Origin: Desulfomonilia bacterium
GTDB lineage: Bacteria > Desulfobacterota > Desulfomonilia > UBA1062
Assembly: GCA_050014195.1 (NCBI GenBank)
Contig: JBEKDT010000002.1
Span: forward strand, 358,174 to 422,173
Reading direction: 5' to 3'
Length of the DNA stretch: 64,000 nt
Each line of letters begins with the position of its first letter. Within the stretch, counting starts at the first letter, position 1. Of the stretch, positions 10,869-51,131 are shown piece by piece. The notes beneath the pieces were generated by a model. The model saw only the letters and a list, made by a program, of their open reading frames with translations. It was not told where the DNA came from and did not search any database. The position numbers were made by a program, and so were the translations under genes.

Positions 10869-10885
10869 CCCCACTTCCTTTGCTC

Positions 10886-10914: not shown

Positions 10915-10922
10915 TGGTCTTC

Positions 10923-36410: not shown

Positions 36411-38170
36411 TGCGCCTTGGTACCATTGCCGACAGGTCTCGAAACGCCCCAGCCGGCATCCGGCGGTGTAGGTATCATCTTCACCACGTAATCGCCTAAT
36501 CCATGAAGAGAGCCGCTCATATAGGAACGCACTTTGTTGTCCTGGTCTGTCAAAGAGAAAATCGATTTGTCGTAAGGACGGACCCGCAAAGACATCGGTA
36601 CGCCCATCAGGTCGAGAAGGGTCGCAAAATTGTTGAGATGGGAAACCCTGATGCCGGGGGGAATGCCGGCTAAGAGCCCTTTCTTGCTATACTGCTTGCC
36701 TGACACGAGAAAATCGGGCACATCGACGATCACCTTGTCAGGCTTCATATGGGTATACACTTTCCCATGCTCCGCCAAAGTCTGGCCATGGTCCGATGTG
36801 TACAGTATGACATAGTTCTGATTCGTCGTTCCGGAAACAAACACCCGGAAGAATTCATCCACTTGAAAGCGGATCCCGTTGTCATAGGTATTGACGAGCT
36901 TCTCACGTCCCGCCATGCTTGGGTCAATGGATTCCGATGCCCCCATAACCGGCTTCCAAATCGCAGAGACCATATCGTCCGGATATCTATTGCGATAGCG
37001 GAAATGAAGACCCTTCTTGTTGATGAGAATGAAATAGCCGCCTCTTTCATTCAGAAGACCACTGAGAAAGCCGGCTACGCCCAAATCCTTCGTGGTTTCA
37101 AGATCGACGTGGCACTCCTCGAACGACTGAGAGTCCATCCACCTGTCCAGGGATCTCACGGGACCATCCCCGGCTGCTTTCAAGAGCTGAGAAAGATAGC
37201 CTCCATCAATGTCAATATAGACCGTCTCATAGCCCATTTTCTTTGCGTAATCAAAGATTGAAGGGTTCCTGTCGGTTCGAAAGTCGACATCGGGAAATGC
37301 GTTGTGACCGGTAATGAGATAGGCATTGCTGATATGGGAAGCGGTACCGGCCGCGACACAAATGCCGAGATTCTTGAGGCGCCCCTGGGTTTGAAGGTAT
37401 TGAAGGAACGGTGTGGTGGCACGAGGGTAGCCGTTCAGGCTGAGAGTGCTGCCGCGAACCGACTCATCGATGACATAGATGATGCTGTCGGAAGGCCGCT
37501 GGGAGATGTGAAACACAGGCAGGTCGTCTCGCGGTCCATGGTATTGGCTTAAGGTTTCAAACTCGTAATGAAGTGTTGAACGGAGGAAGGAGGTCAGGGG
37601 ATTCAGATTGAAGCTGTGTTCCGGCACGTGGAGGAAGAGGGCGTAATTGGAAGCCAGGAGGTAGAGCGCCGGCAGGAGGCTCAGCGCCAGGGTCTTTCGG
37701 GATGCGGATACAGGCGGGACGAGGATCAGTGCGGACAGAACGAGTACGTAGGGGAGAGAATACAAAAAGACGAGCGGTTTGAAGAAGCTTGAGATGGCTT
37801 CTCGGATAGTATCCCCTCCGACGGTCAAGACGAGAAACAGGTCGGTGGCGGTCATGAACTGGGATAGAGTCTGCCAATAGGAAACTTGGACGACTACAAC
37901 GAAAACAGAAAGAAGGATGGCCACCGTGCGGAGAATTCTGGGGAGGAGAAGAATGAGATAGAAGAGGGCGACCACCTGCAGGAAGACCAGCGTGAAGGCG
38001 GCCAGGGACTTCATGGTGCCGGCGACCGGGAGCAAATGCAGCATATCTCGGTAATCACTGAACCTCAAAATGGGATCGATGAGCACCGCGAGTGTTGCTG
38101 CCGACAATGCGGTAATGGCGCGGGGGTAAGGTGCCTGAGTAATGGCGCGAAGCGAGTACTTTGCTATCAT
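36407..38170 (-). CDS. EptA-like phosphoethanolamine transferase / sulfatase-fold membrane protein
   Basis: N-terminal TM helices; VIDESVR, GYPRATTP, GLHFRY, NTYDN, YTSDHG. Confidence 0.8.
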   Translation of the reverse strand: MIAKYSLRAITQAPYPRAITALSAATLAVLIDPILRFSDYRDMLHLLPVAGTMKSLAAFTLVFLQVVALFYLILLLPRILRTVAILLSVFVVVVQVSYWQTLSQFMTATDLFLVLTVGGDTIREAISSFFKPLVFLYSLPYVLVLSALILVPPVSASRKTLALSLLPALYLLASNYALFLHVPEHSFNLNPLTSFLRSTLHYEFETLSQYHGPRDDLPVFHISQRPSDSIIYVIDESVRGSTLSLNGYPRATTPFLQYLQTQGRLKNLGICVAAGTASHISNAYLITGHNAFPDVDFRTDRNPSIFDYAKKMGYETVYIDIDGGYLSQLLKAAGDGPVRSLDRWMDSQSFEECHVDLETTKDLGVAGFLSGLLNERGGYFILINKKGLHFRYRNRYPDDMVSAIWKPVMGASESIDPSMAGREKLVNTYDNGIRFQVDEFFRVFVSGTTNQNYVILYTSDHGQTLAEHGKVYTHMKPDKVIVDVPDFLVSGKQYSKKGLLAGIPPGIRVSHLNNFATLLDLMGVPMSLRVRPYDKSIFSLTDQDNKVRSYMSGSLHGLGDYVVKMIPTPPDAGWGVSRPVGNGTKAQ

Positions 38171-39282
38171 CAGCCCTCTTCCCATTTAGTGGCTATTATG
38201 CCCAGGATGAAGACCACGGCTGCAAAAACCCCTATGACCGCTGAGTATCTCAGCGCGGCCATGTTGTCTTCAAATACCATGGATGCCCGGAGCCCCTCGT
38301 TCACGTAATACAGCGGCAGTGTCTTGGCGAACTTCTGCAGGAACCCCGGCATCAGCTCGATGGGGAAGAAGCTCCCCGAGAGGAACATAATCGGGAAACT
38401 GATGGCGTTTGCCGCAGATGCGGCGCTCTGAGCCTCCTTGACGAAGCGGGTGAGTATCATCCCGATTCCCACGAACGCGAAGACGTCAAGTAAAATGAAC
38501 GCAGGGAGCCATGCATCTAAATGCAACTTGACATGAAACACGGCGTAGCTCACCAGCAGCATCGCCATTGTGGATATGACCGCGAGTATGAACTGGTATA
38601 GGATGTCGGAGAGTATCCATTCGGTACGGGTTATGGGCGTCGTGGACAGTTTCCTGATGATGCCCTTCTGTCGCAGCTCCGTGTTCAAGTTCACCGTGCC
38701 GAACAGGCTCAGAGTCATCACCGCCATCGCGATGATGCCGGGAATGAAGAACTCTATGAACCGGTATTTCTTGGTGAGTATCGATTTCTGGGCCGATCTG
38801 ATGACCGGGGGCTTCCCGGACATCTGCTGGTTTATCCCGGCGAACACTGCGTTCAGGATATCCATCTTCGTGGACACCGAAGAAGAACTGGGGTCGTATA
38901 TATAGGTGATGGTGACGGATGCGTCTGCGTCGCTGAGCATCATGCTGCGCATGAGGGACCGTTCAAAGCCTTTGGGAATGACGAGGACAAGGTTCACCCC
39001 GTTGTCCCTGACGTACCGGGCGGCGTTGACGGCCGGGTCGACCTTGGTTATCTTAAACTTCCCGGAGCTTTTGAGGGTCTTGATGGACCGTGCGGACGAA
39101 TCCGTCTGGTCGAGGTCCTGCACGCAAAGGTGGAAGGCCACGTTGTCCTGGCTCATGAAGATCGTGCCGAACACGAGTATCAGGATTATGGGGAACGCAA
39201 GCGTGAAGAACATGGCGGTTTTCTCGCGGTAGACGCTCATGAGTTTCACAATGAGATTTGCGCCGATGACGCGTGGTTTCAT
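38170..39282 (-). CDS. ABC-2 type exporter permease
   Basis: FFTLAFP, FFIPG, FLSGSFFP, LPLYY. Confidence 0.92.
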   Translation of the reverse strand: MKPRVIGANLIVKLMSVYREKTAMFFTLAFPIILILVFGTIFMSQDNVAFHLCVQDLDQTDSSARSIKTLKSSGKFKITKVDPAVNAARYVRDNGVNLVLVIPKGFERSLMRSMMLSDADASVTITYIYDPSSSSVSTKMDILNAVFAGINQQMSGKPPVIRSAQKSILTKKYRFIEFFIPGIIAMAVMTLSLFGTVNLNTELRQKGIIRKLSTTPITRTEWILSDILYQFILAVISTMAMLLVSYAVFHVKLHLDAWLPAFILLDVFAFVGIGMILTRFVKEAQSAASAANAISFPIMFLSGSFFPIELMPGFLQKFAKTLPLYYVNEGLRASMVFEDNMAALRYSAVIGVFAAVVFILGIIATKWEEG

Positions 39283-40232
39283 TCCGCCCCCTCTTCTCCG
39301 ACGGGACCGTCGCGGAGCGCCTCGCCGGTGAGCTTCAGGAAGACCTCTTCAAGGTTGGGTTTCCGAACGTCCAAGCCAAGGTACAACGCCCCGGCTTCCT
39401 TGATGGCGCTCAGTATCTTCTGTACATCGTCCGTGTGCTCCACCCTGGTCTTGATGTCTTTGTGATTGTCGAGAACCGGGTCGAAGCCCATCTTCCGGAC
39501 GATTTCAAAGGTCTTTTCATCCACGGACTGTAATGTGAGGACCAGGTAATTTGTATTGTTTTCGATCAGTTCCTCGGGAGAGCCCATGGCGATGATCTTC
39601 CCCTTCGAAATGATTGCGACCGTGTCTGCAAGAAGCTCAGCCTCCTCCATGTAGTGCGTGGTCAGAAACACCGTCTTCCCCTTCTTCTTCAGGCCCAGCA
39701 GGACTTCCCACACCTCGCGCCTTGCCCGGGGGTCGAGCCCTGTCGTAGGCTCGTCCAGGAACACGACCTCGGGGTCGTTCACGAGCGCAATCGCGATTCC
39801 AAGGCGCTGCTTCAAGCCCCCGGAGAGGTTCTTGTACTGCTCTTTGGTCTTGTCCTTGAGGTTCACGAGCTCTATCAGAGCGTCGATATCGATGTTCACG
39901 CAGCAGAAAAGCCGCGAGTAGTACTGCAGGGTCTCTCTGACCGTTATCCTGTCGAATGAACTGAACCCCTGCGGAAGGACGCCGATGCGGCGGACGATGT
40001 CGTGCTTTTTCTTCGTGACATCCATTCCAAGAAGGGTCACCTTTCCAGACGTGGGCGTGCGGATTGTATCGATGATCTCGACGGTAGTGGTCTTGCCGGC
40101 GCCGTTCGGGCCCAGCAAGGCGAACACCTCTCCTTTCCTGACGGTGAACGATATTTCATTGACCGCCAGTAAATCTCCATAGCGCTTCGTCAGTTTCTCC
40201 ACTTGGATTGCATATTCAGTTTCTTTGGTCAT
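39279..40232 (-). CDS. ABC exporter ATP-binding subunit
   Basis: GPNGAGKTT, LSGG, FLDEPTTGLD, TTH. Confidence 0.95.
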   Translation of the reverse strand: MTKETEYAIQVEKLTKRYGDLLAVNEISFTVRKGEVFALLGPNGAGKTTTVEIIDTIRTPTSGKVTLLGMDVTKKKHDIVRRIGVLPQGFSSFDRITVRETLQYYSRLFCCVNIDIDALIELVNLKDKTKEQYKNLSGGLKQRLGIAIALVNDPEVVFLDEPTTGLDPRARREVWEVLLGLKKKGKTVFLTTHYMEEAELLADTVAIISKGKIIAMGSPEELIENNTNYLVLTLQSVDEKTFEIVRKMGFDPVLDNHKDIKTRVEHTDDVQKILSAIKEAGALYLGLDVRKPNLEEVFLKLTGEALRDGPVGEEGAE

Positions 40233-41352
40233 GAATCTCCATCCTTGGCCAGAACCCGAGGTGGCTGAGGATCTTCTCGATCACCGCCGACTGCCAGATA
40301 AGAAAACGGTCAATCATCGGCTGGCGGTGCTTAAAAAAAAGAAGGCTTGGGATAAACGTCGCACCCAGATGCGCTTTGGTGTTCTCCGCGCCCTGGCCCG
40401 TGTGATAGAGAGGGATTTTTCGCTCCACGCAGGTGCGGATATTTTCAAGCCAGGACAAAATATAAAGGTTGTATTTGCGGCCGAGCTCGTAATCCATGCA
40501 GAAATATTTATCCACCATCCCTTGTTGTTTTACGATGAGAAGATTGAAAGCGGCGAGTTCTTCCTGCACAAAATAGAGCGTGTACTCGGCGTCTGGTATT
40601 TTCTCACATATTTTTTCAAAAAACAAACGGTTGTGCGCGCCAAACGCAATGGGGCCCCTCTCCACTGTTTCCAGATAAAGCTTGTAGATCCTGTCTAGAA
40701 AAGGAGAAATATTGCGGCTTCGAATCACCCGGACGTCGGGGGCAACCCGCATTTTGCGGCGCAGGTCTTTTCTCGCTGCCCTTGATAAGCGGGCTAAGAA
40801 TTCCTCCATGCTGTTAAAATTGATCGGCAGTTGGGCGCTAGACTGGCATTGTACCCTGTTGAATTGTTTGGATACCTGCTCGGGTAGTTTGCTGTAATGA
40901 TTAAAGTTGTAAAGCGCCACGATGTTACTATTAAGTTCGGCCGCAAGCGTTTGCAAGGCGCCAAAGGCCATTTTGCATGCCGCATCGAGGGTACCCTTAT
41001 CGATTTGAGGATCAATCCCGATTTCACTCCATTCCCCTACCAGCAACCCAACGCCTAAAATACGGGGTTGAAAAAGCGAGGGGATGAGACGGCCTGCAAC
41101 TTTCAGCGATTTCTTGATCCATCCCTTCACAAAAGTGGACAAATCAAAACGGGTTTCAAACAACGGCAATAAGAGGATAGGAACATCATCTTTTAACACC
41201 ACGATGCTGCGCAGGTTAAAACCGTCAATACCCGATTCTTGCAACAGGGAAAGAAGTGGGGCGGTGATAGAAGGCTCAGGGAAAAGCCGTCCAAGTTCTG
41301 CCGCCGGTATTCCGTCTAACCGCGGCACACAATTGCAGGTAAGGTTATTCAT
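40216..41352 (-). CDS. FemAB-like / Acetyltransf_6 GNAT-fold acyltransferase
   Basis: FNSMEEFLARLSRAARKDLRRK, DYELGRKYNLY, GQGAENTKAHLG. Confidence 0.8.
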   Translation of the reverse strand: MNNLTCNCVPRLDGIPAAELGRLFPEPSITAPLLSLLQESGIDGFNLRSIVVLKDDVPILLLPLFETRFDLSTFVKGWIKKSLKVAGRLIPSLFQPRILGVGLLVGEWSEIGIDPQIDKGTLDAACKMAFGALQTLAAELNSNIVALYNFNHYSKLPEQVSKQFNRVQCQSSAQLPINFNSMEEFLARLSRAARKDLRRKMRVAPDVRVIRSRNISPFLDRIYKLYLETVERGPIAFGAHNRLFFEKICEKIPDAEYTLYFVQEELAAFNLLIVKQQGMVDKYFCMDYELGRKYNLYILSWLENIRTCVERKIPLYHTGQGAENTKAHLGATFIPSLLFFKHRQPMIDRFLIWQSAVIEKILSHLGFWPRMEIHDQRN

Positions 41353-41431: not shown

Positions 41432-42277
41432 TCACCGCTTCAAATCCAGGTACCACCGTGTGGCATCACTCCCGATTCCTAAACGGGCAAGATGGCGCAG
41501 ATCCGCTTCCAGAACTTCGGGCGTGCTGTACTCCAGTATGCGGTATTGAGGATCCGTCCAAACACGCCGCATCTGACCCCAAACCTTCGTTTCCTGCGGC
41601 AAGGTGAGGCGAATGCGGTGGATCAGGTTGATGCCCGCCAGCGCCGCTGTTTCTATCACCATATCGGTGCAGTTGTTGGTCCTCACGCCGAATTGGTCGT
41701 ACTTCCGATGCATCACGTAATCATGGATCAATTGATATCGCCGCCGGGTAATCGGCATTTGCCAGACGAACGAGGGGGGGTGTTTGGGCTTGCCGATCTG
41801 TAATTGGCCATCGGACATCGTCTTCCACAAGTAAGCGATAGGATTGGGATCCCCATCCCGGATTTTCTGATACACGCCTTCATGGTAACGCAGTTTCGTT
41901 TGCCCGAAGTCGCCGGTGTGGCCGAATTCCAGACGATCTTGGGGACTTTCCAGGATGAGCCAACTATGCGCCCACGGATGCAGCCAAATTGAGGAGACAA
42001 GCGAAGCCGCATCGCTGTAATCCCAATCGGCAGCGTCGTTGAGGATATAGAGGTAATATCCCTCGTCCCCCACGGGCGTTCCGGTGGCGGGATCCAGGTC
42101 GGCATCGGGGGCAAAACGGCACATGATCGCGATGGGCTGGGCGCTCCAGCCATCGGGTTGCATCGGAGCGTATAGTCTGAGCGTATGGTGTGCGCACCCG
42201 GCTGCAACCCCTGCCAGTAATATCATCACCACGAGGAGACGCGCTTGATATACTCGTTCGGTTGCTTTGCTATTCAT
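41432..42277 (-). CDS. Lipoprotein with His...NNC motif (permuted papain-like fold, putative)
   Basis: Lipobox AAGC; WAHSWLILE and TNNCTD. Confidence 0.6.
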   Translation of the reverse strand: MNSKATERVYQARLLVVMILLAGVAAGCAHHTLRLYAPMQPDGWSAQPIAIMCRFAPDADLDPATGTPVGDEGYYLYILNDAADWDYSDAASLVSSIWLHPWAHSWLILESPQDRLEFGHTGDFGQTKLRYHEGVYQKIRDGDPNPIAYLWKTMSDGQLQIGKPKHPPSFVWQMPITRRRYQLIHDYVMHRKYDQFGVRTNNCTDMVIETAALAGINLIHRIRLTLPQETKVWGQMRRVWTDPQYRILEYSTPEVLEADLRHLARLGIGSDATRWYLDLKR

Positions 42278-42663: not shown

Positions 42664-42672
42664 AAATTATCG

Positions 42673-43458
42673 CTAAGGATTACAAGTTGTTGATTGAGAC
42701 AAACATAGCCGCTTTAACGTTGCGGCAATAGAAAACCATCCTTCCATTTGTGGAAGCGAATATACCCATATGCACCGGCCGGCACCCACGGGCAAATGTT
42801 CCAAAGCTTTCCCTGATAAGTGCACCGGAAAGGTATACACCCCTTCTCTGCTTACTGATGGATAAACATAGACTTGCCTCGGTTCTACCATATGAAATGC
42901 GCACCCAATGGCTTTGACAACCGCTTCTTTGACAGACCAGAGCAGGGCTGATGCCTGCTCCACATCTCCAAGAGTCAAACTCAGTGCATGTCGGAGCTCT
43001 TGTTCATGGAAGACCCGGTGAAAGGGGTATTCTCCTTTGAATTCATAAGTCCCTGCCATATCGATACCGATTTCAGCTCCGTCTCCACAGAGGGCGGCCC
43101 AGACCTTTCCCCCACCCTCACTGAAGGAGATGGCCGGCCCCTGATATTCTCCTAATAAAAGATATGGCTTGCCCAACTGGTTACAGACCACCCGGATTGG
43201 GAAGGCTTCTTTGTCTGGTGTGTAATAGAATTTCCAAAAAGGATTCCCCATCGCCATGAGGTGGTCCCACAGGATAGTGACCAAGCGGTGCCTGTCGTCC
43301 TCACCGTTCGTTCTGCATTCTTTTAAAGTTTCGCCTGCACAGGGCAGGGACGCATAGAAGACGGAGCCCTTTTTATTAAGGAAACTAACGGTATGAATGG
43401 TTATTTTCCGGCAATCCGTTGCCATACCCACGCCCATCTTTCCCATGCTGAAGTTCAA
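42673..43458 (-). CDS. 4'-phosphopantetheinyl transferase (Sfp-type)
   Basis: LGKP, ISFS, IGID, WSVKEAVVKAIG; overlaps the PKS stop. Confidence 0.88.
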   Translation of the reverse strand: MNFSMGKMGVGMATDCRKITIHTVSFLNKKGSVFYASLPCAGETLKECRTNGEDDRHRLVTILWDHLMAMGNPFWKFYYTPDKEAFPIRVVCNQLGKPYLLLGEYQGPAISFSEGGGKVWAALCGDGAEIGIDMAGTYEFKGEYPFHRVFHEQELRHALSLTLGDVEQASALLWSVKEAVVKAIGCAFHMVEPRQVYVYPSVSREGVYTFPVHLSGKALEHLPVGAGRCIWVYSLPQMEGWFSIAATLKRLCLSQSTTCNP

Positions 43459-46400
43459 TCCGAAACCAAGTGCATCCGCATGCCATGAACCTGCATGATA
43501 GTGCTGCCCTGGCCATCAATCCCTCTGGCATCCCAGGTGAGGCTTTTCTCGTCCTGTTTACGCATGCGGGCCTCCAGTATTATCTGTTCCCCATCCCGGC
43601 ATTTTCGGAAAAACCTCATCTCACCGATCTCCATGGGAATCATGGAACGTCGCTCGGAGGGTACCATTGCAATATTAGAGAAATTGGCAAGTTGCAATAG
43701 TGCCTCGAAAAGATAGGGAGAATATTGGTATCGAGTATTCTGCAGATGCTTGAAGTCACTTGTCTCCCGGTAAACTGTCCGGCCCTTCACTACGCCTGGG
43801 CAGGCGCCGTCAAGGGACTCCATCACGCGATACCTGCCTTCGAGGCCGCTGAAGTCTTTGTACCATTTAAGAATTCTATTATGACCCATTGGCTTTGTAC
43901 GCAGTTCATCCATCCGGACTGGAAAATCAGGGAATCCATTCCCCAGATATTCTTTCCCTCCATCGAGGATCACTTGGCCTACACAATATGGGATAAGTCG
44001 ACCAGGCAATCCCCCTGATACGGAGTGTTCCTGTATCGCAAGAGAGACCTCACATGATATCTCTCCAAGGGATGCATCGGCTCGTCGGCAGGAGATCCTG
44101 GTAAGCCTTGGAAGCCAAGGGGTGCATCGGATCGTGTCTATGAATCGAATCCCTCGAACCCCTCGCACCTGCAGGTGTGGATATAAGATCCGGGCTGCTT
44201 CCATGAATGTCTCCACAAGCATGGCTGCTGAAACCAGCGGATCCTTCATGAATTTAAAAGGCATGTGATCAGCGATCCAGAGATCTTTCTCCAGGGAGAA
44301 GGATCGAAAAGCCTCCAGGTGTTCACCACGGATATCCAGGCAAGAGACACCGTCTATCATGGGGAAGTCCTCGGGGCTGAAGGTTACGGCGCCTTCATTC
44401 GGTTCTCCCTTGACCGAAGGAGGGATTGTATCATTGAGCAGTGCAGTATTTAGGGAAGGCAGTCTCCGCATAAACATCACCCAATCATCGTCTGCCGGGG
44501 TCATGGAGATCTCCCGGCAGAAAAGCCCTGCAAGCTCATTTACATGAATATAATCCACACCCTTCCATTTCAAAAATTCGCGGACCTCCGGGTCTTCCGC
44601 CATACCCGCCCCCTCGACAGGGGGAAGCATCAACGCCTTGAACCGGATAGCGGGGTTTTTTCTGTGGAGGTATCTGAGTAATCCGGACATCATCCGGTTG
44701 GCTGAAGCGTAGTTCGCCTGGCCGGGATTGCCCTGTATGGCAGCCACTGATGAGAGGCCGATAAAAAATCTCAAGCCGGCCCCCTGTGCAGCAGAAAACA
44801 GATTCCAGGCCCCGAGAAATTTGACATCGGTGACTATTGAGAAATCATCCTCGGTCATTTCGCTTAAAAGACCATCCCTGAGGATTCCTGCTCCGTGAAC
44901 AATCCCGTCTATCTTGCCATAACGGCTTACCACCTTATCAATGGTCGCACGAACCGCCTCGGAATCGGTTACATCGCAGGTATAGTATGTTGCCTCGATC
45001 CCTGAAGAATGTAAATCCATCAGGGTTTGAGCGATCTCGGATGCCCTCTTGACGGAAGTGGATGGTTCAGAACGTGAAGGCCCCGGGGAAGGCTTTTCCG
45101 GAACAGGATCAATGTCTTGAGGGACAGCGGTCCTCCCAAGCAGGACCAGGCGGGGCGCGAAGGGCACAAGGCTGCGGGCAAGGTGGGCGCTGATCCCGGT
45201 TGCACCACCGGATATAACTACAACATCTCCAGGCTTAAGATTCGGATTCGGCAGGTCCCTTAGGAGCACCGGGGCTATGTATCCCTGCGAGGTGAAGACC
45301 CTTCCATCACGATGAATGGTCTCAACCACGGTGAATCCTTTGTCCAGAACCGAGGATAAGACAGTGCGAAGATTACTGTCCGGGCCGATTTCCGCTGTGC
45401 GGAATTGGACCGATGGGTACTCCTGCGCTGCGCTTAAGAATAGTCCGAGCATTGCTTCCGCAAGCAGCCGACTGGGGGTTTCGGCATCCTGACTGTTATG
45501 TATCAGGAGAACAAACTTCTTAGCCGGGGACCTAAGGAATGCCTTTAGGAGGGAAAAGAGACCTCTGAGAAGCAGGGAGACATCCGCCACCGACCCGCAT
45601 TGACCGAGCGAGATGATCATCCCTGAAAAGGGAGGCATTCCTGATATTTTATCTGCAGCTTTTGCGGCTCCTCCATTTGTTCGAATATCGTGACCCTCTT
45701 CACCAGGACTCGGGTTCCCCTGCATGAACAGCATGGGATACGTCACGGCATCGTAATCCTGCCGGAAGATCTCTCCTGCACTCCTGACGATTTCATCATC
45801 CCTGTCGGGTGAGAGGAGGAGGATCGACTCGCCCGGACTCAATGCAATAGGCATAGAGACTGTCGGCTCAAGGGGTACCTGGTTGAACACGAGCCGTTTC
45901 AAGCTCACCTCTTCCTCTGAAGGCTTCAGGGTTTTATCCCTGGCCGATCCAGGCTCAGCGGACTTGGCGGCTGGTCGTGTGCTTAACCCATCATACCTGG
46001 AGACTATTTCGGTGACCTTCTGTGCGAAGTCCCTCACGGTGTGGATATCGAAAAAATCCTTCATCTCCAGAGTGATCCCGAAACGGCGTTCCACAGCATC
46101 CATAATTACTGGGAGGCGGCTGGAGCGGATGGACAGGTCTCTCCTGAGATCCATATCAGGTTCAATCTCATCCCTATTGAATCCCGTAGCATCCATGATG
46201 ATTTGAATAAGCGCCTCCAAATGATCCTGGTTTACTTCCGGGTTTGATCCTGCAAGCTTTTGTTTCGAGGGTTGTGATGCGGTTGCAGCTTCGATTCGGT
46301 GGGCATCGGCGGTTTTTTTGAATGCTCTGAGCGAAACAAACCTCGGTTCGCCCTGAGCCTTCAGGTGGCCTTGAACAAAGAGCTGTGCAAGGGCTGTCTT

Positions 46401-49400
46401 GTACGTGAGTCCCTCTGCAGAAGATAGGCAGGTCGGGATACAAACCGGCTCGGGGAGAGTATCTGCGATGAGGTTGCTCAAGGTGGTGCCAGGGCCCAGC
46501 TCCACGAAGATCCGGGCTCCATATTCATCCGAAAGAGTCCGGACATTATTCATCCAGTGCACTGTTGATTCCAGGTGGGCCATGAGGATCCGCCTTATTT
46601 CACTGGGATCTGACGGATACGGCGCCATGGTTGTGTTTGAAATAACGGGAATCTGCGGAGGATAAAACTCTATGGAGGCGACATACTCCTCGAGCTCATC
46701 TCGGATGACCCGCATTATAGGGGAATGGAAGGCCATGCTGACCCGAAGGAGAGTGGATCGGTATCCCTTCTCTTTCAGTTTTAGAACAAGATCCTTCACC
46801 TCTTGGGTGCCACCGCTCAGAACGACCTGATTCGGTGCATTGATATTACCGATGTGGACGGCATCCCGTTCTTGGATCATCTCTTGGAGCATGTCCAGGG
46901 GGGCGTCGGTGGCGGCCATGACGCCTGGGTCCACGTTCATGCCGGCGGCCTTGTCCATGCAGATGGCCCTTTTGTTCACGATGCGGAACCCGTCCTCAGG
47001 AGAATAGACACCGGCCAGGCATAAGGCAGTTAGTTCGCCCAGACTGTGGCCGGCCATGGCTACAGGTTTTATGCCAAGACTCATGAGGTATCGAGCCATG
47101 GCATGTTCTATGGTGAACATTGCAGGCTGCTGCCACCGGGTCTTCTGGAGATTCTCCTCAGAATCGTTAAACAGGAGCTGAAGAAGGTCAAAATCAGCTA
47201 CAGCCGCAGCACGATCCATCCAATCCCTGATGACGGGAAAAGAATCATAGAGATCCCGCCCCATCCTTTCGTACTGTGACCCCTGTCCGGGGAATACAAA
47301 GGCGAGCGGTAAGGCCGGCACATCCTCAGGACCCATAAAGATCCTCTTCTGTGCAAGGGATCTCGTGACCTTGGGTGAAACAACTCCGGCATCCAAAAGA
47401 GAGGCTGACCTTTCAATGAGGGTGAGCGCCTCCTCTTCGGATTGCGATACTACAGCGAGGCGCCAGTTACGGCCTCCCATTTCGGTCCGGAAGAAAGAGA
47501 CGCCCTGGAGCGCAGAAAGGCCTTCACGATTCTCTCCGGTGAGACCGGTTCTTCTTCCCGGGGAAACCAAGACCGTATCTGTTTTATCCATGGCCTGCTC
47601 TACATGTGCAACGTAGTTGGTGCCTCCAAACCCGAAGGCGTTGACCTGAAGTCTTCTTGGTCGGCCGTCCTTGCATTTCCAATCAAACGGCTCAGGGGCG
47701 ATGAGGAGGCCTGATCCTTCCAGGCCCATTTCCGGGTCCGGATGCTCATAATTGAGCGTGGGAGGGAAAACTCCTTTCTGAATGGCCATGACCCCTCGAA
47801 TGAGGTTGTTAATGCCCGAGGCCCCCAGCGTATGCCCGATCTGTGATTTGAATGACGTGAGGACCGTGCGCTTGGATGAATCGAAGAATGTCTTCAGAGC
47901 GCGGACCTCCTCCACGTCTCCTTGCCGGGTACTCGTGGCATGGCATTCCACCAGGTCCACTGCGTCCGGCCCATAAGGTAATTCCCGGAAAGAGGAGCGG
48001 ATGGCGATCTCCTGGGTAACATGGGAGGACTCAACCATCCCCAGGTGGTTGTTGCTCGCTCCCATGCCGGTAATAACGGCGTGGACGGGTGCACCTCGAT
48101 CTCGTGCCAGACTTTCCCGCTCGATGACGATCAATCCTCCGCCTTCGCCGAGTACCATCCCGTCTCTTCCGGCATCGAAGGGCCGCGAGGTCTCGTGAGC
48201 GGGCCTGTCCTGTCCCGACAGACCGAAAAGTGCGCCCAGGGCTGAGAACTCCAGAAAGTGCAGGTGGGTAAGGGTATCCTCGCCTCCTCCGACAATGGCT
48301 GCATCGATGATGCCGTTTCTGATCATCTGTATGGCGCTGTGAAGCGCGACCAGCGATGTCGAGCAGGCTGCAGATACGGAATAGCTGGGTCCCATGAACC
48401 CATACCGGTTGCAGACGAAGCCGGCTGCTGCGCAGTTGAGCCTGCCCAGAAGTGTTGTGTCGTCCGGGGCCATGCGTCCGGCCCTTATCTCCCGCTCGAT
48501 CGCGAGCTCCTGATCCGGTGTGAGGTTGATCGCCCTCTTTATGGAGGGGATGATGTCATGTACGTATGCACGGATGATGATATCGGTAAGGGTCCTTGCC
48601 GACTCACCCGAGTTCTGGGAGATGATTACCCCGATTCGCTCGCGTGGGATGTCCGACTCCAGGATGCCCGATGCCCTGATGGCCTTATCCGCCAACCACA
48701 AGGTGATCTTTGTAGCATCGGTCATGGTCCGGAAGTCCTGAGGTGAAATTCCGAGTTCATTGCGTGAGATGTTCAAGTCCAGGAAGGCGCCCACCTTGCA
48801 ATAGGTCTTGTCCGGCACAAGAGGCTTGGGATCATAAAAAAGATCGTGATTCCACCGCGACCGGGGAACCAAGGTAATCCCGCTTTTCATTGCCAGGCTT
48901 GCAGCCCAGACCTCCTCCGGACTCTTCCCCAGGGCATTGAGGATACTCATCCCGGTGATGGCGATCCTTTCGTGAATATCACCTCGAGTGCTGCACGGCT
49001 TGAATCCATGGCTAACGCCCCAAGACGGGGTTTCACTTTTGGATGACTTGTCAGGTAAAGGTTCGGATATATCCTCGATAGACCCCTCGAAGGGTTTATA
49101 CAGCATGAGAGGGCCTTCGGCCAGATCGCGGTGAAAAGAGTGCAGGTCCTGGATCTTATGAATGAGACCGGCACAGGACCCACTCATAAACTGCCCACGT
49201 TCCAGGCAGGCCCGCTCATCCAGCGGCGCTTTATCTGTCCTGTCCATACCTCTGGCCGCAACAAGGAGGCTCCCCGCAGTCATTTCCTCCATTCTTCTTC
49301 GGAAGGAGAACTCGTCTTGGCGGCTCGCTGCAAATTCCCTCTCCATGGACGTAATAGCTGCCAATAGAGGCGTTCTCAAGGATCGTACCCGTATTCCGGT

Positions 49401-51131
49401 GCTCCGGCCGGAAATTGCTGTTCCACACGGAAGCGATTCCAGGATCAGCCGCTGATAGAGGGGGCTCAAGGCACCTGTTTCAACGATTTCACGTGTGGCC
49501 AGATACGCGGTGCCCATCTGGATGGCATCTGCGCCGAGCATGGCGGCCATGAATGCGGTTTCTCGATTAAAGATACCCCCTGCAAGGATCACGCGGCGGT
49601 TTCTGAACAGGGATGGGTTGCGCTGCTTGAGGTTCAACACCATTTGAGCAAGGGTGAGTACGCTATGCTGTCCCACGTGGCCACCTGCCTCGTATCCTTC
49701 GCAGACCACGTACCGGACACCGGCTTCAAAGGCATGCCTCATCAGGGCCTCATCAGGGGCGATATATATGACCTCGATGCCGCATTCGATCAATTCTCTT
49801 ATGGGGGAAAGATCGCCACCTGCGATCCAGACAAAACGGGGTTTGTGTTTTTTTATCCAGGCCAGATGAGTATCCCTGAAAGGGTTTTCTGCCAGAGAGA
49901 CGACATTCACTGCATAAGGTCGTGCTCCCATAATCTCCGGCAACCTTCCCAGCTTTTTATGAAGGGTCTCCTCATCCATCAGGCCCAGGGCGATGGTGGG
50001 TAACCCCCCTGCATCGGCAACCCTTAAGGCAAACTCGGGGACATCAGTGATGGAAGACATGGCTCCCTGGATAAAGGGGTATCGAATTCCGAGTTCTCCG
50101 GCTACAGGGCTGTCTAAAAAACAATCCTTTTTTGCTTGTGCCAGATCCCATGAGTTTCGAATCTCGGCCATAAAGGCTTTTATGGCCTCCTCTGTTCCGG
50201 TGCCGAAACGCACCACAAAGGACTGGGCAAAGGCAGCCTCTACACCCAGAGGGATGACCTCATCTAGGTTGTAATTACTCTCCAGCGGGTGGATGGCTTT
50301 AGCATGCACATAATCAATAAAAGAAGTGCGGCTTTCTTCCGAGATCTCTTTGGCGCATAGAGAGTCCTCGAGATCCTTGATCTCCTTGAATGCACGAGAG
50401 TTTCCCTTGTTGAAAAGGCGGCAGGGGACCTGCAGATCCAAGCCGACCAGATCGGTAGAGTCCATACGGAGATTTGCAATCCGTTGTCGTTGGAGATCAT
50501 CAATAACTACCAGGTCTGTCAACCAATGGACACTCTCGAAGACGATACCCGTTGCTCCAGTGGACAAAAATGCCGCTGCTGCCTCAGGGGTTGAAATGCC
50601 TCCCCAAATAAGGATTTCAGGAGATATCGGCAATGAGCGCAACATCTCCCTGGCTGCTGAATAAAGGGATAGGGTCGATTCTCCACTCACAAACCCCGAG
50701 GCCTCACATCCTTTCAGAGCAATGTGACTGATTCCCGATCCATCCTTCAGAATGGCTGAGAGGAAATCCAGGTCCCCGATGATAGGAAAGAGGCGGTAGG
50801 TTTCAGATAATTCCTTTAATCTCTGGAGAACAATAAAAGGATCTCCTACCGAGAACCAATGAAGGCATTCTACCCAGATGTTTTGGATCCCTGTTCCCTT
50901 AAGGAACCGGCCCAATGATGAATCAAGCATGGTAGGGATAGATAGTTTGATATCTCTAAAGAGGGTGTCAGGGTTAGCCTTTTGTAAGAAAGAATGCAGT
51001 TCTGCAGCACCCATCATGGAACAATCTAAGATGGCTCTGCTTCCCGTTCGGTGTGCCATCTGGATCACAGATGGGATTGTATCCTTTTGCTGCCAGACGA
51101 AAGCGATGATGGGAGCCTTATTTTCAATCAA
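43455..51131 (-). CDS. Type I iterative PKS/FAS: FabK-like ER (x2)-KS-AT-ACP-KR-DH
   Basis: EGYEAGGHVG (FabK/NMO), KS SAACSTS/ECHAT/IGH, AT FPGQG/GHSLG/AFHS, ACP DLSIRSSRL, KR GGATGI/HGAGILRD/YASAN, DH WIADHMP. Confidence 0.92.
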   Translation of the reverse strand: MIENKAPIIAFVWQQKDTIPSVIQMAHRTGSRAILDCSMMGAAELHSFLQKANPDTLFRDIKLSIPTMLDSSLGRFLKGTGIQNIWVECLHWFSVGDPFIVLQRLKELSETYRLFPIIGDLDFLSAILKDGSGISHIALKGCEASGFVSGESTLSLYSAAREMLRSLPISPEILIWGGISTPEAAAAFLSTGATGIVFESVHWLTDLVVIDDLQRQRIANLRMDSTDLVGLDLQVPCRLFNKGNSRAFKEIKDLEDSLCAKEISEESRTSFIDYVHAKAIHPLESNYNLDEVIPLGVEAAFAQSFVVRFGTGTEEAIKAFMAEIRNSWDLAQAKKDCFLDSPVAGELGIRYPFIQGAMSSITDVPEFALRVADAGGLPTIALGLMDEETLHKKLGRLPEIMGARPYAVNVVSLAENPFRDTHLAWIKKHKPRFVWIAGGDLSPIRELIECGIEVIYIAPDEALMRHAFEAGVRYVVCEGYEAGGHVGQHSVLTLAQMVLNLKQRNPSLFRNRRVILAGGIFNRETAFMAAMLGADAIQMGTAYLATREIVETGALSPLYQRLILESLPCGTAISGRSTGIRVRSLRTPLLAAITSMEREFAASRQDEFSFRRRMEEMTAGSLLVAARGMDRTDKAPLDERACLERGQFMSGSCAGLIHKIQDLHSFHRDLAEGPLMLYKPFEGSIEDISEPLPDKSSKSETPSWGVSHGFKPCSTRGDIHERIAITGMSILNALGKSPEEVWAASLAMKSGITLVPRSRWNHDLFYDPKPLVPDKTYCKVGAFLDLNISRNELGISPQDFRTMTDATKITLWLADKAIRASGILESDIPRERIGVIISQNSGESARTLTDIIIRAYVHDIIPSIKRAINLTPDQELAIEREIRAGRMAPDDTTLLGRLNCAAAGFVCNRYGFMGPSYSVSAACSTSLVALHSAIQMIRNGIIDAAIVGGGEDTLTHLHFLEFSALGALFGLSGQDRPAHETSRPFDAGRDGMVLGEGGGLIVIERESLARDRGAPVHAVITGMGASNNHLGMVESSHVTQEIAIRSSFRELPYGPDAVDLVECHATSTRQGDVEEVRALKTFFDSSKRTVLTSFKSQIGHTLGASGINNLIRGVMAIQKGVFPPTLNYEHPDPEMGLEGSGLLIAPEPFDWKCKDGRPRRLQVNAFGFGGTNYVAHVEQAMDKTDTVLVSPGRRTGLTGENREGLSALQGVSFFRTEMGGRNWRLAVVSQSEEEALTLIERSASLLDAGVVSPKVTRSLAQKRIFMGPEDVPALPLAFVFPGQGSQYERMGRDLYDSFPVIRDWMDRAAAVADFDLLQLLFNDSEENLQKTRWQQPAMFTIEHAMARYLMSLGIKPVAMAGHSLGELTALCLAGVYSPEDGFRIVNKRAICMDKAAGMNVDPGVMAATDAPLDMLQEMIQERDAVHIGNINAPNQVVLSGGTQEVKDLVLKLKEKGYRSTLLRVSMAFHSPIMRVIRDELEEYVASIEFYPPQIPVISNTTMAPYPSDPSEIRRILMAHLESTVHWMNNVRTLSDEYGARIFVELGPGTTLSNLIADTLPEPVCIPTCLSSAEGLTYKTALAQLFVQGHLKAQGEPRFVSLRAFKKTADAHRIEAATASQPSKQKLAGSNPEVNQDHLEALIQIIMDATGFNRDEIEPDMDLRRDLSIRSSRLPVIMDAVERRFGITLEMKDFFDIHTVRDFAQKVTEIVSRYDGLSTRPAAKSAEPGSARDKTLKPSEEEVSLKRLVFNQVPLEPTVSMPIALSPGESILLLSPDRDDEIVRSAGEIFRQDYDAVTYPMLFMQGNPSPGEEGHDIRTNGGAAKAADKISGMPPFSGMIISLGQCGSVADVSLLLRGLFSLLKAFLRSPAKKFVLLIHNSQDAETPSRLLAEAMLGLFLSAAQEYPSVQFRTAEIGPDSNLRTVLSSVLDKGFTVVETIHRDGRVFTSQGYIAPVLLRDLPNPNLKPGDVVVISGGATGISAHLARSLVPFAPRLVLLGRTAVPQDIDPVPEKPSPGPSRSEPSTSVKRASEIAQTLMDLHSSGIEATYYTCDVTDSEAVRATIDKVVSRYGKIDGIVHGAGILRDGLLSEMTEDDFSIVTDVKFLGAWNLFSAAQGAGLRFFIGLSSVAAIQGNPGQANYASANRMMSGLLRYLHRKNPAIRFKALMLPPVEGAGMAEDPEVREFLKWKGVDYIHVNELAGLFCREISMTPADDDWVMFMRRLPSLNTALLNDTIPPSVKGEPNEGAVTFSPEDFPMIDGVSCLDIRGEHLEAFRSFSLEKDLWIADHMPFKFMKDPLVSAAMLVETFMEAARILYPHLQVRGVRGIRFIDTIRCTPWLPRLTRISCRRADASLGEISCEVSLAIQEHSVSGGLPGRLIPYCVGQVILDGGKEYLGNGFPDFPVRMDELRTKPMGHNRILKWYKDFSGLEGRYRVMESLDGACPGVVKGRTVYRETSDFKHLQNTRYQYSPYLFEALLQLANFSNIAMVPSERRSMIPMEIGEMRFFRKCRDGEQIILEARMRKQDEKSLTWDARGIDGQGSTIMQVHGMRMHLVSD

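What the first reader, a model, noticed from the sequence alone, without database searches (positions are those of the whole stretch)
43455..51131. Single-chain FAS/PKS with tandem N-terminal FabK-like barrels, atypical ACP and no release domain
The order is FabK-like (degenerate, KGCEASGFVS lacking His), FabK-like (EAGGH intact), KS, AT, ACP, KR, DH. This resembles a PfaD-type ER fused ahead of a PfaA/PKSE-like core, giving a full reductive cycle in one protein. The ACP reads LSIRSSR instead of LGxDS, which may explain the dedicated PPTase. The DH acid residue appears as Glu (LFEALLQ). The AT motif AFHS suggests malonyl. The product is unknown and off-loading must occur in trans.
Basis: partly seen in the sequence, partly recalled or inferred. 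Interest (0 to 1): 0.7.

Follow-up and report, generated by a model that had tools for sequence, protein, structure and literature searches.

The report
Single-chain fatty-acid synthase in ceramide-type cluster
This is a real 2558-residue all-in-one fatty-acid-type synthase of an uncultured peat bacterium, built in an undescribed domain order, and its conserved neighbours suggest that it makes the fatty chain of a sphingolipid-like envelope lipid.

Summary
It has no release domain.

All catalytic motifs are intact. The ACP carries an invariant D-L-S-I-R-S-S-R motif: the carrier Ser is kept and the preceding Asp is replaced by Arg.

The ER is FabK-type, not PfaD-type (141 against 29 bits). The protein fails the membership tests for PfaA and PKSE. 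The two barrels are predicted to pair like a FabK dimer (0.93 against 0.00 for the best control).

Orthologues about 70% identical over the full length occur only in uncultured anaerobes of several phyla. The conserved core is tandem-GNAT acyltransferase, synthase, PPTase and ABC-2 exporter.

In genomes without the synthase, the same GNAT family sits in AOS–GNAT–SDR(–PAP2) groups, the gene pattern of bacterial ceramide synthesis (12 of 20 loci). Many synthase loci also carry the SDR or a FAAL-ACP-AOS fusion.

Best reading (about 0.5): a dedicated iterative synthase for a ceramide-type lipid, off-loaded in trans by the GNAT and/or AOS and then exported. No product is shown. Verdict: new variant of a known kind.

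The parts
43455..51131 (-). Whole synthase ORF, 2558 aa, TTG start, stop included
50127..51131 (-). N1, residues 1-335: degenerate FabK-like TIM barrel (F147 in place of the catalytic His). Predicted pseudo-dimer partner of the ER.
   Evidence: hhalign; model; Foldseek; complex; 82% mean column identity in 36 sequences
49125..50096 (-). N2, residues 346-669: FabK-type FMN enoyl reductase, E-A-G-G-H485 intact
47745..48971 (-). KS, residues 721-1129; C923, H1064, H1100
46449..47300 (-). AT, residues 1278-1561; GHS1363LG, R1388, AFH1469S (malonyl type)
46020..46217 (-). Single ACP, residues 1639-1704. The carrier Ser1670 (codon 46122-46124) lies in the invariant motif DLSIRSSR.
44658..45221 (-). 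KR catalytic part, residues 1971-2158 (K2104, Y2141, N2145; LRD 2084-2086). Residues about 1745-1970 are conserved and probably the KR structural half.
43458..44324 (-). DH, residues about 2270-2558; H2289...P2298 and E2476xxxQ2480
42673..43458 (-). Sfp-type PPTase, 261 aa. Its start overlaps the synthase stop.
   Evidence: Pfam ACPS; 52 of 54 loci
41432..42277 (-). 281-aa predicted lipoprotein (lipobox VAAGC), no family. Weak lead to TseH-like Cys hydrolases.
40216..41352 (-). FemAB-like / Acetyltransf_6 protein, 378 aa
   Evidence: 19 of 49 loci
38170..40232 (-). ABC ATPase (39279-40232) and ABC-2 permease (38170-39282)
   Evidence: 44 of 49 and 39 of 43 loci
36407..38185 (-). Membrane EptA-like phosphoethanolamine-transferase/sulfatase-family protein, 592 aa
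   Evidence: 11 of 43 loci
35055..36410 (-). B12-binding radical SAM enzyme, 451 aa
   Evidence: 18 of 43 loci, median identity 84%
34135..35016 (-). PAP2 protein (PAP2_3, PAP2, PAP2_C), 293 aa
   Evidence: the same PAP2|GNAT pair is in a synthase-less relative (L075)
32970..34097 (+). Tandem-GNAT acyltransferase, 375 aa. It is the only member of the GNAT family in this genome.
55820..57166 (-). Second alpha-oxoamine synthase (AOS), 448 aa; not the biotin BioF

Best explanation
The ORF encodes an iterative, fully reducing, single-chain fatty-acid-type synthase.

Proposed working cycle:
- The AT loads malonyl units onto the one ACP.
- The KS (Cys-His-His) extends the chain.
- KR, DH and the FabK-type FMN enoyl reductase reduce each new unit.
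- A largely saturated acyl chain therefore grows on the enzyme's own carrier. This step is inferred from intact motifs.

Inferred roles of the unusual parts:
- The first barrel has lost the catalytic His. It most likely serves as the built-in dimer partner of the active reductase, as predicted by the complex model.
- The ACP, with Arg in place of the usual Asp before the carrier Ser, is primed by the PPTase encoded next to it. This is inferred from adjacency only.

Release and fate of the chain:
- The synthase has no release domain, so the chain leaves in trans.
- The most likely route is N-acyl transfer by the tandem-GNAT acyltransferase that accompanies the synthase in nearly all relatives.
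- That GNAT belongs to the family which, in synthase-less genomes, sits between an Spt-like AOS and an SDR reductase, where a bacterial ceramide synthase would sit.
- An AOS taking the chain to build the long-chain base is a second route. SgaA/SgaB of Pseudomonas fluorescens are a precedent.
- The product would be a ceramide-type envelope lipid.
- It would be moved across the inner membrane by the ABC-2 exporter.
- In this window it would be further decorated by the PAP2, EptA-like, FemAB-like and B12-radical-SAM enzymes of the same operon.

Shown: the domains, the motifs, the conservation and the gene company. Inferred: the product class, the route of off-loading and all decorations.
For: Domains and motifs are intact and invariant in 30 homologues.

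No release domain was found.

Barrel pairing:
- Score 0.93 against 0.00 for the best of 3 controls.
- This mark was reached by 116 of 157 solved complexes and by 2 of 215 mismatched pairs.
- The runs share at least 81% of contacts, and the partner's pLDDT is at least 87.
- The interface uses equivalent elements of both barrels.

Synteny in the related loci:
- GNAT within 2.5 kb upstream on the same strand in 38 of 42 loci. The fourth exception, L035, has it 2.6 kb away.
- PPTase in 52 of 54.
- ABC ATPase in 44 of 49.
- ABC-2 permease in 39 of 43.

GNAT family:
- It is present in 96 of 301 genomes of the phylum, against 11 of 301 for the synthase.
- In 20 GNAT loci from 19 synthase-less genomes, 12 have both an AOS and an extended SDR beside the GNAT. 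15 have the SDR and 8 have a PAP2.

Synthase loci:
- The same SDR family (Epimerase Pfam, 326 aa) lies directly upstream of the GNAT in many of the 22 of 61 loci that hold it.
- 11 loci carry a FAAL-ACP-AOS fusion.
- The stand-alone AOS copies of six synthase loci fall in one starred clade with the triad AOS.

Window AOS:
- It is not BioF. A bioF-bioD-bioA row lies on contig C17.
- Among 5 genomes of the family, only the synthase-bearing one has this AOS. The 4 others have none, or only a 39% match.

Literature (passages read):
- Spt, an acyltransferase bCerS and a reductase CerR make bacterial ceramide and are often clustered (PMC11334938, PMC11087976).
- Spt of some proteobacteria uses a special ACP loaded by a special acyl-ACP synthetase (PMC11324152).
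- An iterative PKS with an AOS makes C24-C28 sphinganines in P. fluorescens (PMC12134224, section 8 and passages).
Against: - No lipid, transcript or enzyme activity was seen.
- Direct homology of the GNAT to Caulobacter bCerS, and of the SDR to CerR, could not be tested because no reference sequence was on hand. That bCerS is a GNAT-type protein and CerR an epimerase-type SDR is recalled, not shown by any search.
- The window type of cluster (with FemAB, lipoprotein and radical SAM genes) has no SDR. Apart from this window and its closest relative L002, it has no AOS next to it either.
- By ORF clustering, only 8 of 31 loci with both flanks held GNAT, SDR and AOS together.
- In the window the GNAT is only 29-33% identical to the synthase-linked GNATs of other loci. 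It lies 9 kb from the synthase on the other strand.
- The window AOS is a long, unresolved branch in the AOS tree. It scores just over the BioF cut-off (428.9 against 426.45) and under all Spt cut-offs (410 against 640).
- The AOS is separated from the synthase by a divergent gene.
- The GNAT model is poor (pLDDT 53).
- The pairing of the barrels may pass only because it resembles solved FabK dimers, and the two chains are halves of one protein.
Confidence: 0.5

Rival explanations
1. The synthase makes the acyl part of some other exported N-acyl or O-acyl envelope lipid that is not a sphingolipid. Examples would be an N-acyl amino acid, an N-acyl amino sugar or polyamine lipid, or a special chain for lipid A. 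The GNAT would transfer the chain to that acceptor. The EptA-like, PAP2 and FemAB-like enzymes would then act on it in the envelope.
For: - The strictly conserved core is only GNAT, synthase, PPTase and ABC-2 exporter.
- About half of the loci show no AOS or SDR within 8-10 kb.
- The best structural matches of the GNAT model are tandem GNATs acting on amino sugars and a clavulanate intermediate (low-confidence model).
- EptA-like and PAP2 proteins are also classic lipid A modifiers (NCBIfam names).
Against: - The GNAT family sits in AOS-GNAT-SDR groups in 12 of 20 synthase-less loci.
- The SDR or a FAAL-ACP-AOS fusion lies in many synthase loci.
- The extra AOS appears only with the synthase in the window's family.
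Confidence: 0.25
2. It is the cell's main (housekeeping) fatty-acid synthase, replacing an incomplete type II system.
For: - The 100%-complete genome has fabD-fabG-acpP-fabF, but no FabZ/FabA match (TIGR01750; PF07977 at E up to 0.1) and no FabH over the cut-off.
- The domains score best on FabF, FabD, FabG and FabK models.
- Full-length identity of about 70% across phyla is housekeeping-like.
Against: - All 4 other genomes of the same family also lack FabA/FabZ matches and lack the synthase. This includes the 2 genomes of the same genus.
- 4 of the 11 synthase-bearing genomes have a strong FabZ match.
- The synthase is patchy, in 11 of 301 genomes.
- The gene tree mixes phyla.
- The synthase always travels with an exporter and an acyltransferase.
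Confidence: 0.07
3. It is a PUFA-, polyene- or enediyne-type (PfaA/PKSE-like) synthase. The ER would act only in some cycles, giving an unsaturated chain or a hydrocarbon.
For: - The order KS-AT-ACP-KR-DH is that of PfaA and PKSE (recalled for PKSE; for PfaA see PMC3098273, passages).
- PfaA is among the best NCBIfam matches.
- A PPTase gene follows the synthase.
Against: - There is a single ACP.
- No KS-CLF or FabA-type dehydratase/isomerase is in the window or anywhere in the genome.
- No hot-dog thioesterase is among the neighbours.
- The PfaA score is far under its cut-off.
- The ER is FabK-type and fused in cis.
Confidence: 0.08

Closest known systems
SgaA/SgaB(/SgaC) of Pseudomonas fluorescens MYb115: iterative type I PKS plus AOS making very-long-chain sphinganines (PMC12134224)
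   Same: An iterative single-module synthase without its own release domain works with an Spt-like AOS and a reductase to feed sphingolipid synthesis. The gene company is comparable (AOS, SDR).
   Different: - I had no SgaA sequence, and the passages I read do not state its domain order, so homology is untested.
- Here the constant partner is a GNAT acyltransferase, not the AOS. An ABC-2 exporter and a PPTase are also constant.
- Their genus table of 6,101 homologous clusters is dominated by Burkholderia (3452). It lists only single entries such as Syntrophaceae 1, Desulfobacteraceae 1 and Lentisphaeria 1 (supplement file 17). I cannot tell whether those entries belong to this family.
Canonical bacterial ceramide genes Spt - bCerS - CerR (Caulobacter; PMC11087976, PMC11324152, PMC11334938)
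   Same: - AOS, N-acyltransferase and reductase genes are clustered.
- In some bacteria a special ACP and an acyl-ACP synthetase feed Spt. The FAAL-ACP-AOS fusions found in 11 loci combine the same three activities.
- Head-group enzymes lie nearby.
   Different: - No megasynthase is part of the canonical system.
- The window lacks the SDR next to the cluster.
- Homology of this GNAT to bCerS rests on gene position, not on a sequence comparison.
PfaA plus PfaD of PUFA synthases, and the 'Type J' two-gene cluster pfaD-pfaA of Planctomyces limnophilus (PMC3098273)
   Same: An ER gene ahead of KS-AT-ACP-KR(-DH), with a PPTase gene nearby. The authors class these as secondary lipid synthases.
   Different: - One ACP instead of tandem ACPs.
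- The ER is fused, FabK-type and preceded by a degenerate twin barrel.
- There is no PfaB/PfaC partner.
- The scores lie far below the family cut-offs.
Mycocerosic acid synthase with PapA5 and DrrABC of mycobacteria (recalled from knowledge; MAS is also among the best solved-structure matches)
   Same: A fully reducing iterative synthase without a thioesterase. Its chain is taken directly by a separate acyltransferase, and the lipid is exported by an ABC-2-type transporter.
   Different: - The domain order differs (KS-AT-DH-ER-KR-ACP with an MDR-type ER).
- The acyltransferase is of another fold, and the acceptor is another lipid.
FabK, FMN-dependent enoyl-ACP reductase II
   Same: The second barrel matches FabK over 289 of 307 profile positions and keeps EAGGH. 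The first barrel's best structural matches are FabK chains.
   Different: - Both barrels are domains of a megasynthase.
- The first barrel has Phe in place of the catalytic His.
- The score of 141 bits lies under the FabK cut-off of 453.

Membership tests
PUFA synthase PfaA (TIGR02813) | Whole-protein score over the curated cut-off | tested here: not met
   427.9 bits in 3 stretches against a cut-off of 1010.1
PUFA synthase PfaA | Several tandem ACP domains | tested here: not met
   One PP-binding stretch, 1639-1704. PMC3098273 calls multiple ACPs the distinguishing trait but accepted some single-ACP clusters (passages).
PUFA synthase system | PfaD-family ER (TIGR02814) | tested here: not met
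   29 bits against a cut-off of 449.25; FabK model 141.3 bits
PUFA synthase system | Partner with KS-CLF and FabA-type dehydratase/isomerase domains | tested here: not met
   None among the window's ORFs. No PF07977 match in the whole genome at E up to 0.1.
Enediyne PKSE | KS-AT-ACP-KR-DH with a fused C-terminal PPTase, a neighbouring hot-dog thioesterase and no ER (definition recalled) | tested here: not met
   The order KS-AT-ACP-KR-DH is met. However, the PPTase is a separate gene, an ER is fused in front, and no thioesterase family was found in the neighbours.
FabK (TIGR03151), for the second barrel | Near full-length match and the catalytic His in E-A-G-G-H | tested here: inconclusive
   Profile positions 7-295 of 307 matched and H485 is present. 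The score is 141.3 bits, under the cut-off of 453.1, as expected for a diverged fused domain.
Bacterial ceramide pathway (Spt-bCerS-CerR) | Spt-type AOS encoded with the cluster | tested here: inconclusive
   - A second AOS lies at 55820-57166 and is not the BioF of the bio operon.
- It is 41-47% identical in tblastn alignments to the 10 AOS copies that lie right beside a GNAT (35-38% to two further triad copies), against 36% to the genome's own BioF.
- Its place in the tree is unresolved, and its Spt model score is 410 against a cut-off of 640.
Bacterial ceramide pathway | bCerS-type N-acyltransferase | tested here: inconclusive
   The GNAT family lies beside both an AOS and an SDR in 12 of 20 synthase-less loci. 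No comparison with a characterised bCerS was possible.
Bacterial ceramide pathway | CerR-type reductase encoded with the cluster | tested here: not met
   In the window, no homologue of the SDR lies within the window. The best match in the genome is 35% identical and about 300 kb away on the contig. Among relatives the SDR is present in 22 of 61 loci.
SgaAB-type PKS-derived sphingolipid cluster | Synthase homologous to SgaA and adjacent to its AOS | not testable with these tools
   No SgaA sequence was on hand. In the window the AOS lies 4.7 kb upstream, beyond one divergent gene.
Carrier protein (PP-binding) | Ser at the phosphopantetheine site in the (D/G)xDS context | tested here: met
   S1670 aligns with the Ser of the D-I-D-S motif of AcpM. 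That this Ser is AcpM's attachment site is recalled, not shown by the call. The preceding Asp is Arg1669, invariant in 30 of 30 sequences. Actual modification was not tested.

The most novel reading that the evidence does not exclude
This family would be a further architectural class of type I fatty-acid synthase: FabK pseudo-dimer, then KS-AT-ACP-KR-DH. It would have spread by gene transfer among uncultured anaerobes of peat, wetlands and lakes.

Its chain would be handed directly from a charge-reversed ACP to a ceramide-synthase-like GNAT. This would give unusual ceramides: very long-chain and, where the 84%-conserved B12 radical SAM enzyme is present, methyl-branched.

The co-conserved ABC-2 pair would be the inner-membrane sphingolipid flippase that the Caulobacter work says has not yet been identified (PMC11087976, passages).

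Such lipids could be abundant, so far unassigned biomarkers of anoxic soils.
Probability: 0.25. Interest if true: 0.8.

Novelty: new variant of a known kind. Interest (0 to 1): 0.62.

Why it matters
Bacterial sphingolipids were long thought rare. Genome surveys now predict them in dozens of phyla, including anaerobes (PMC11334938, passages). What supplies their acyl chains and what moves them across the membrane is largely unknown.

This family is common in metagenomes. At least 2705 proteins were found in one search, and near-identical DNA occurs in 24 peat or wetland runs. All 63 related loci come from uncultured genomes.

The family would tie a dedicated megasynthase, a ceramide-synthase-like acyltransferase and an exporter into one testable operon.

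It also offers two mechanistic questions that can be tested cleanly. One is a reductase that carries its own dead twin as dimer partner. The other is a carrier protein whose recognition motif is charge-reversed and which has its own PPTase.

Tried and rejected
- Earlier findings of this scan: nothing was shown for this place.
- Solved structures by sequence: only generic KS-AT, FAS and ACP matches, with no close relative. The GNAT profile found nothing below E 0.76.
- GNAT family annotation: Pfam gave only weak Acetyltransf_1 matches (6 of 24 members). NCBIfam gave none for the two members scanned, the window's and that of L013. The Atlas gave only 'GNAT family'.
- GNAT fold: low confidence (pLDDT 53), so its Foldseek matches to tandem GNATs are only a lead.
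- GNAT against the FemAB-like protein: no detectable relation (hhalign E 0.76).
- The 281-aa lipoprotein: no family. The Atlas gave a lead to TseH-like hydrolases at 0.89 only.
- Housekeeping-FAS idea: weakened (see rivals).
- Expression: no RNA holder was listed for the gene among 24 runs. I did not lay reads.
- brGDGT or ladderane links: one literature search gave nothing relevant. The radical SAM enzyme scores 70.7 bits against a cut-off of 360 on the 'lipid biosynthesis B12/radical SAM' model, and its best match is HpnJ at 98.6 of 577.6 bits. This was dropped as unsupported.
- Literature on this architecture: searches found no paper describing an ER-KS-AT-ACP-KR-DH single chain, or a synthase linked to bCerS. 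The nearest are PMC3098273 (Type J) and PMC12134224.
- The primary bCerS paper (PMC8891067) is not held.
- A KS phylogeny against named PfaA, HglE and PKSE sequences was not possible because no reference sequences were on hand. HMM scores were used instead.

Full report
**The object**

The window holds one uninterrupted ORF on the minus strand, 43455..51131. It is 2558 aa long and starts at a TTG. An AGAGGG motif lies 10 nt upstream of the start. Homologues begin at the same place.

Pfam gives NMO/FabK 347-607, KS 721-1129, AT 1278-1561, PP-binding 1639-1704, KR 1971-2158 and PS-DH 2422-2557. No thioesterase, reductase, condensation or other release domain appears in Pfam or NCBIfam scans of the whole protein or of its parts.

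The catalytic residues are all present:
- KS: C923, H1064, H1100
- AT: S1363, R1388, AFH1469S
- KR: K2104, Y2141, N2145
- DH: H2289, and E2476 with Q2480
- ER: H485 in EAGGH

They are invariant or nearly so in an alignment of 30 homologues whose mean column identity is 75%.

**The N-terminal twin barrel**

Residues 1-335 have no Pfam hit. Three lines of evidence say that they are a diverged copy of the following FabK-type barrel.

- A profile of residues 1-335 aligns collinearly with a profile of residues 336-700 over 202 columns. LKGCEASGFVSGE falls on CEGYEAGGHVGQH and IWGG falls on LAGG. The support is weak (E 5.3e-4, probability 31%).
- An AlphaFold model shows eight alternating strands and helices in residues 8-198. 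Mean pLDDT is 66.9 and pTM 0.69. Residues 202-263 and 278-300 are below 50.
- In Foldseek the three best matches are chains of one FabK entry (9pl0, best E 1.6e-7, TM 0.51) and rank 4 is T. maritima FabK (5gvj). FabK of S. pneumoniae and P. gingivalis, a trans-AT ER domain and nitronate monooxygenases follow further down, but generic TIM barrels are close behind.

The catalytic His is Phe147. Yet this domain is as conserved as the rest, at 82% mean column identity in 36 sequences.

A complex prediction of barrel 1 against barrel 2 scored 0.93, against 0.00 for the best of three controls. That mark was reached by 116 of 157 solved complexes and by 2 of 215 mismatched pairs. The runs share at least 81% of contacts, and the partner's pLDDT is at least 87. 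The interface uses the equivalent elements of both barrels.

ER domains are reported to act as homodimers, and the two ER domains of a thraustochytrid PUFA synthase form a heterodimer (PMC13311796, abstract). I therefore read barrel 1 as a built-in, catalytically dead dimer partner. The pass may simply reflect likeness to solved FabK dimers, and the two chains are halves of one protein.

**What the domains resemble**

- The active barrel is FabK-type, not PfaD-type: 141.3 bits on TIGR03151 against 29 bits on TIGR02814.
- The KS alone scores FabF 229.8, PKS_plus_SDR 226.5 and PfaA 195.7 bits.
- The AT scores 218.6 bits on FabD, whose cut-off is 260.9.
- The ACP matches type II ACP models weakly.
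- The whole protein stays far under every curated cut-off: PKS_plus_SDR 547.9 of 1740 and PfaA 427.9 of 1010.1.
- No close relative has a solved structure.

The order KS-AT-ACP-KR-DH is that of PfaA and, from recall, of PKSE. The defining features of both families are not met (see Membership tests). The nearest described arrangement that I found is the 'Type J' pair pfaD then pfaA [KS-MAT-ACP3-KR] of Planctomyces limnophilus (PMC3098273, passages).

**The ACP**

The ACP aligns with mycobacterial AcpM so that S1670 falls on the Ser of the D-I-D-S motif. That this Ser is AcpM's attachment site is recalled, not shown by the call. The Asp before it is Arg1669. D1665, L1666, R1669, S1670, S1671, R1672, L1673 and P1674 are invariant in 30 of 30 sequences.

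An Sfp-type PPTase gene overlaps the synthase stop codon. Relatives have one within 1.5 kb downstream in 52 of 54 loci. That the odd motif needs this PPTase is a reasonable inference, but it is untested.

**Distribution**

One database search returned 2705 proteins at E up to 1e-3. The best 120 all have the same Pfam set and are 67-93% identical.

Sixty-three related loci were fetched. All are from metagenome-assembled genomes. By their record titles they include Syntrophobacteraceae, Syntrophaceae, Desulfobaccales, Desulfarculales, Desulfomonilia, Nitrospirota/Thermodesulfovibrionales, Aminicenantes, Phycisphaerae/Planctomycetia, Limisphaerales and Binatia.

In a tree of the first 700 residues the window groups with a Desulfomonilia bin. 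Thermodesulfobacteriota and Nitrospirota each need at least 2-3 changes on the tree.

In 301 genomes of the window's phylum, full orthologues occur in 11. None was found in the 4 other genomes of its own family. Near-identical DNA is held by 24 runs labelled peat or wetland metagenome.

**Gene company**

In the window the minus-strand genes from 51131 down to 34135 abut or overlap one another. The one exception is a gap of about 400 nt at 42278-42672, between the PPTase and the lipoprotein gene, which holds only a 56-aa ORF. The genes run in this order:
1. synthase
2. PPTase
3. a lipoprotein of no family
4. a FemAB-like protein
5. ABC ATPase
6. ABC-2 permease
7. an EptA-like membrane protein
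8. a B12 radical SAM enzyme
9. a PAP2 protein

A tandem-GNAT gene converges on the end of this row.

Across relatives the constant set is as follows:
- tandem GNAT directly upstream: 38 of 42 loci. The exceptions are three loci of the window's own lineage and one locus where it lies 2.6 kb away.
- PPTase: 52 of 54
- ABC ATPase: 44 of 49
- ABC-2 permease: 39 of 43

The other genes vary: radical SAM 18 of 43, FemAB-like 14 of 43, EptA-like 11 of 43, AOS 10 of 43 and PAP2 9 of 43.

**The link to ceramide synthesis**

Clustering all ORFs of the loci showed two further families that the window lacks.
- A 326-aa extended SDR (Epimerase Pfam) occurs in 22 of 61 loci, in many of them directly upstream of the GNAT.
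- A fusion of about 1190 aa, fatty-acyl-AMP ligase + ACP + AOS, occurs in 11 loci.

The GNAT family is much more widespread than the synthase: 96 of 301 genomes against 11.

Twelve of them have an AOS and the SDR beside the GNAT, often as a contiguous AOS-GNAT or SDR-AOS-GNAT row. Fifteen have the SDR and 8 have a PAP2. Four have neither AOS nor SDR.

Published work describes bacterial ceramide synthesis as an AOS (Spt), an acyltransferase (bCerS) and a reductase (CerR) that are often clustered. It also describes a special ACP and acyl-ACP synthetase that feed Spt in some proteobacteria (PMC11334938, PMC11087976 and PMC11324152; passages).

The groups found here fit that pattern. The FAAL-ACP-AOS fusion combines the same three activities as synthetase, ACP and Spt.

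I could not compare the proteins directly with the characterised ones. That bCerS is GNAT-like and CerR epimerase-like is recalled.

**The window's own AOS**

The genome has two AOS genes that both score at the BioF cut-off (429.2 and 427.6 bits). The one on contig C17 lies in a bioF-bioD-bioA row. The window's copy at 55820-57166 is therefore the extra one.

- The 4 synthase-less genomes of the same family have no orthologue of it (best match 39%).
- The closest relative's locus, L002, has it in the same place.
- It is 41-47% identical in tblastn alignments to the 10 AOS copies that lie right beside a GNAT (35-38% to two further triad copies), and 36% to the genome's own BioF.
- Its position in the tree is an unresolved long branch.
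- The stand-alone AOS copies of six other synthase loci fall inside the triad clade (SH-aLRT 97).

**Mechanism proposed**

The synthase builds a largely saturated chain on its own ACP. A separate enzyme then removes the chain.

The GNAT is the best candidate because it is the constant neighbour. Where a FAAL-ACP-AOS fusion is present, the long-chain base already has its own acyl supply.

One synthase-bearing genome (G230) has both an ordinary AOS-GNAT pair and a second GNAT next to the synthase. This fits a synthase-specific N-acyl transferase.

Off-loading by an AOS, as in SgaA/SgaB of P. fluorescens, which make C24-C28 sphinganines, is the alternative (PMC12134224, section 8 and passages).

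The ABC-2 pair would flip or export the lipid. The Caulobacter work states that no sphingolipid flippase or transporter has been identified (PMC11087976, passage).

The PAP2, EptA-like, FemAB-like and radical SAM enzymes would decorate the head group or the chain. All of this is inference from gene company.

**Weak points**

About half of the loci, including the window's cluster type, show no SDR next to the synthase. Apart from the window and L002 they show no AOS either.

The window's GNAT is a distant paralogue, 29-33% identical to the synthase-linked ones. It forms a PAP2|GNAT pair that also exists in a synthase-less relative (L075), so it may not be dedicated to the synthase.

No product, transcript or activity has been seen.

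**Rival: main fatty-acid synthase**

The genome is 100% complete. It has fabD-fabG-acpP-fabF, but no FabZ/FabA match and no FabH over the cut-off.

The lack of FabA/FabZ matches is shared by all 4 synthase-less genomes of the family. Four of the 11 synthase-bearing genomes have a strong FabZ match. The synthase therefore does not track the gap.

**Verdict**

This is a real and well-conserved megasynthase with an undescribed architecture. It is not a member of the PfaA or PKSE families.

It most likely serves a ceramide-type or other N-acyl envelope lipid pathway in uncultured anaerobes.

It is a new variant of a known kind: iterative secondary-lipid synthases, with PKS-derived sphingolipids known since 2025.

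Noticed in passing
whole genome G000; fab genes at G000:C19:44279-47375 (L066): The 100%-complete genome has fabD-fabG-acpP-fabF, but no FabZ/FabA-family match (TIGR01750; PF07977 at E up to 0.1) and no FabH over the cut-off. All 4 other genomes of its family, and 4 of 6 genomes of a sister family, also lack PF07977 matches; the other 2 have only weak ones. Which dehydratase these lineages use is open.
   Followed up: partly
window 51354-55652 (+): A 1432-aa protein with two BcrAD_BadFG activase domains and DUF2229 is transcribed divergently from the synthase. Its size and build are like the single-gene plasmalogen synthases PlsA (4.2-4.9 kb genes; PMC12838417, passages). It lies next to the synthase only in the window's lineage (L002, L003). 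Orthology was not tested.
   Followed up: partly
window 57432-59833 (-): A stand-alone 308-aa protein with a 2-oxoacid-dehydrogenase (E2-type) acyltransferase catalytic domain and a 435-aa Fe-alcohol dehydrogenase lie just upstream of the extra AOS, on the same strand. No homologues were found in the other 63 loci. They may form a small lipid operon together with the AOS.
   Followed up: no
L067 (G103:C1:205000-218500), ORF 1424-12322 (-): A second family of megasynthases of 2500-3900 aa exists in the phylum, seen in about 16 ORFs. These match residues ~130-675 of the window protein at about 30% identity. The one that I scanned has NMO ER, three KS-type stretches, AT, two ACPs, KR and PS-DH. 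The 'ER first' build is therefore older than this family.
   Followed up: partly
window 60063-63887 (-): A 1274-aa NACHT protein matches the antiphage EruA model over its full length (833.7 bits, under the cut-off of 1000).
   Followed up: no
window 21600-24658: A second B12-binding radical SAM gene (21600-22874, -) lies next to a PMT_2-type glycosyltransferase (23087-24658, +). Distant radical SAM paralogues (27-38%) also lie upstream of the GNAT in several related loci (L029, L034, L036, L040, L062).
   Followed up: no
window 42493-42663 (-): A 56-aa basic ORF fills the gap between the PPTase and the lipoprotein gene. The closest relative, L002, has only about 90 nt there, so the ORF is probably not conserved.
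   Followed up: no
related loci such as L006, L049, L055, L058, L060, L062: In several long-read MAG loci the synthase and its neighbours are split into pieces by frameshifts or stop codons. These are most likely assembly errors. Because of them, ORF-based counts are lower than tblastn-based counts.
   Followed up: no
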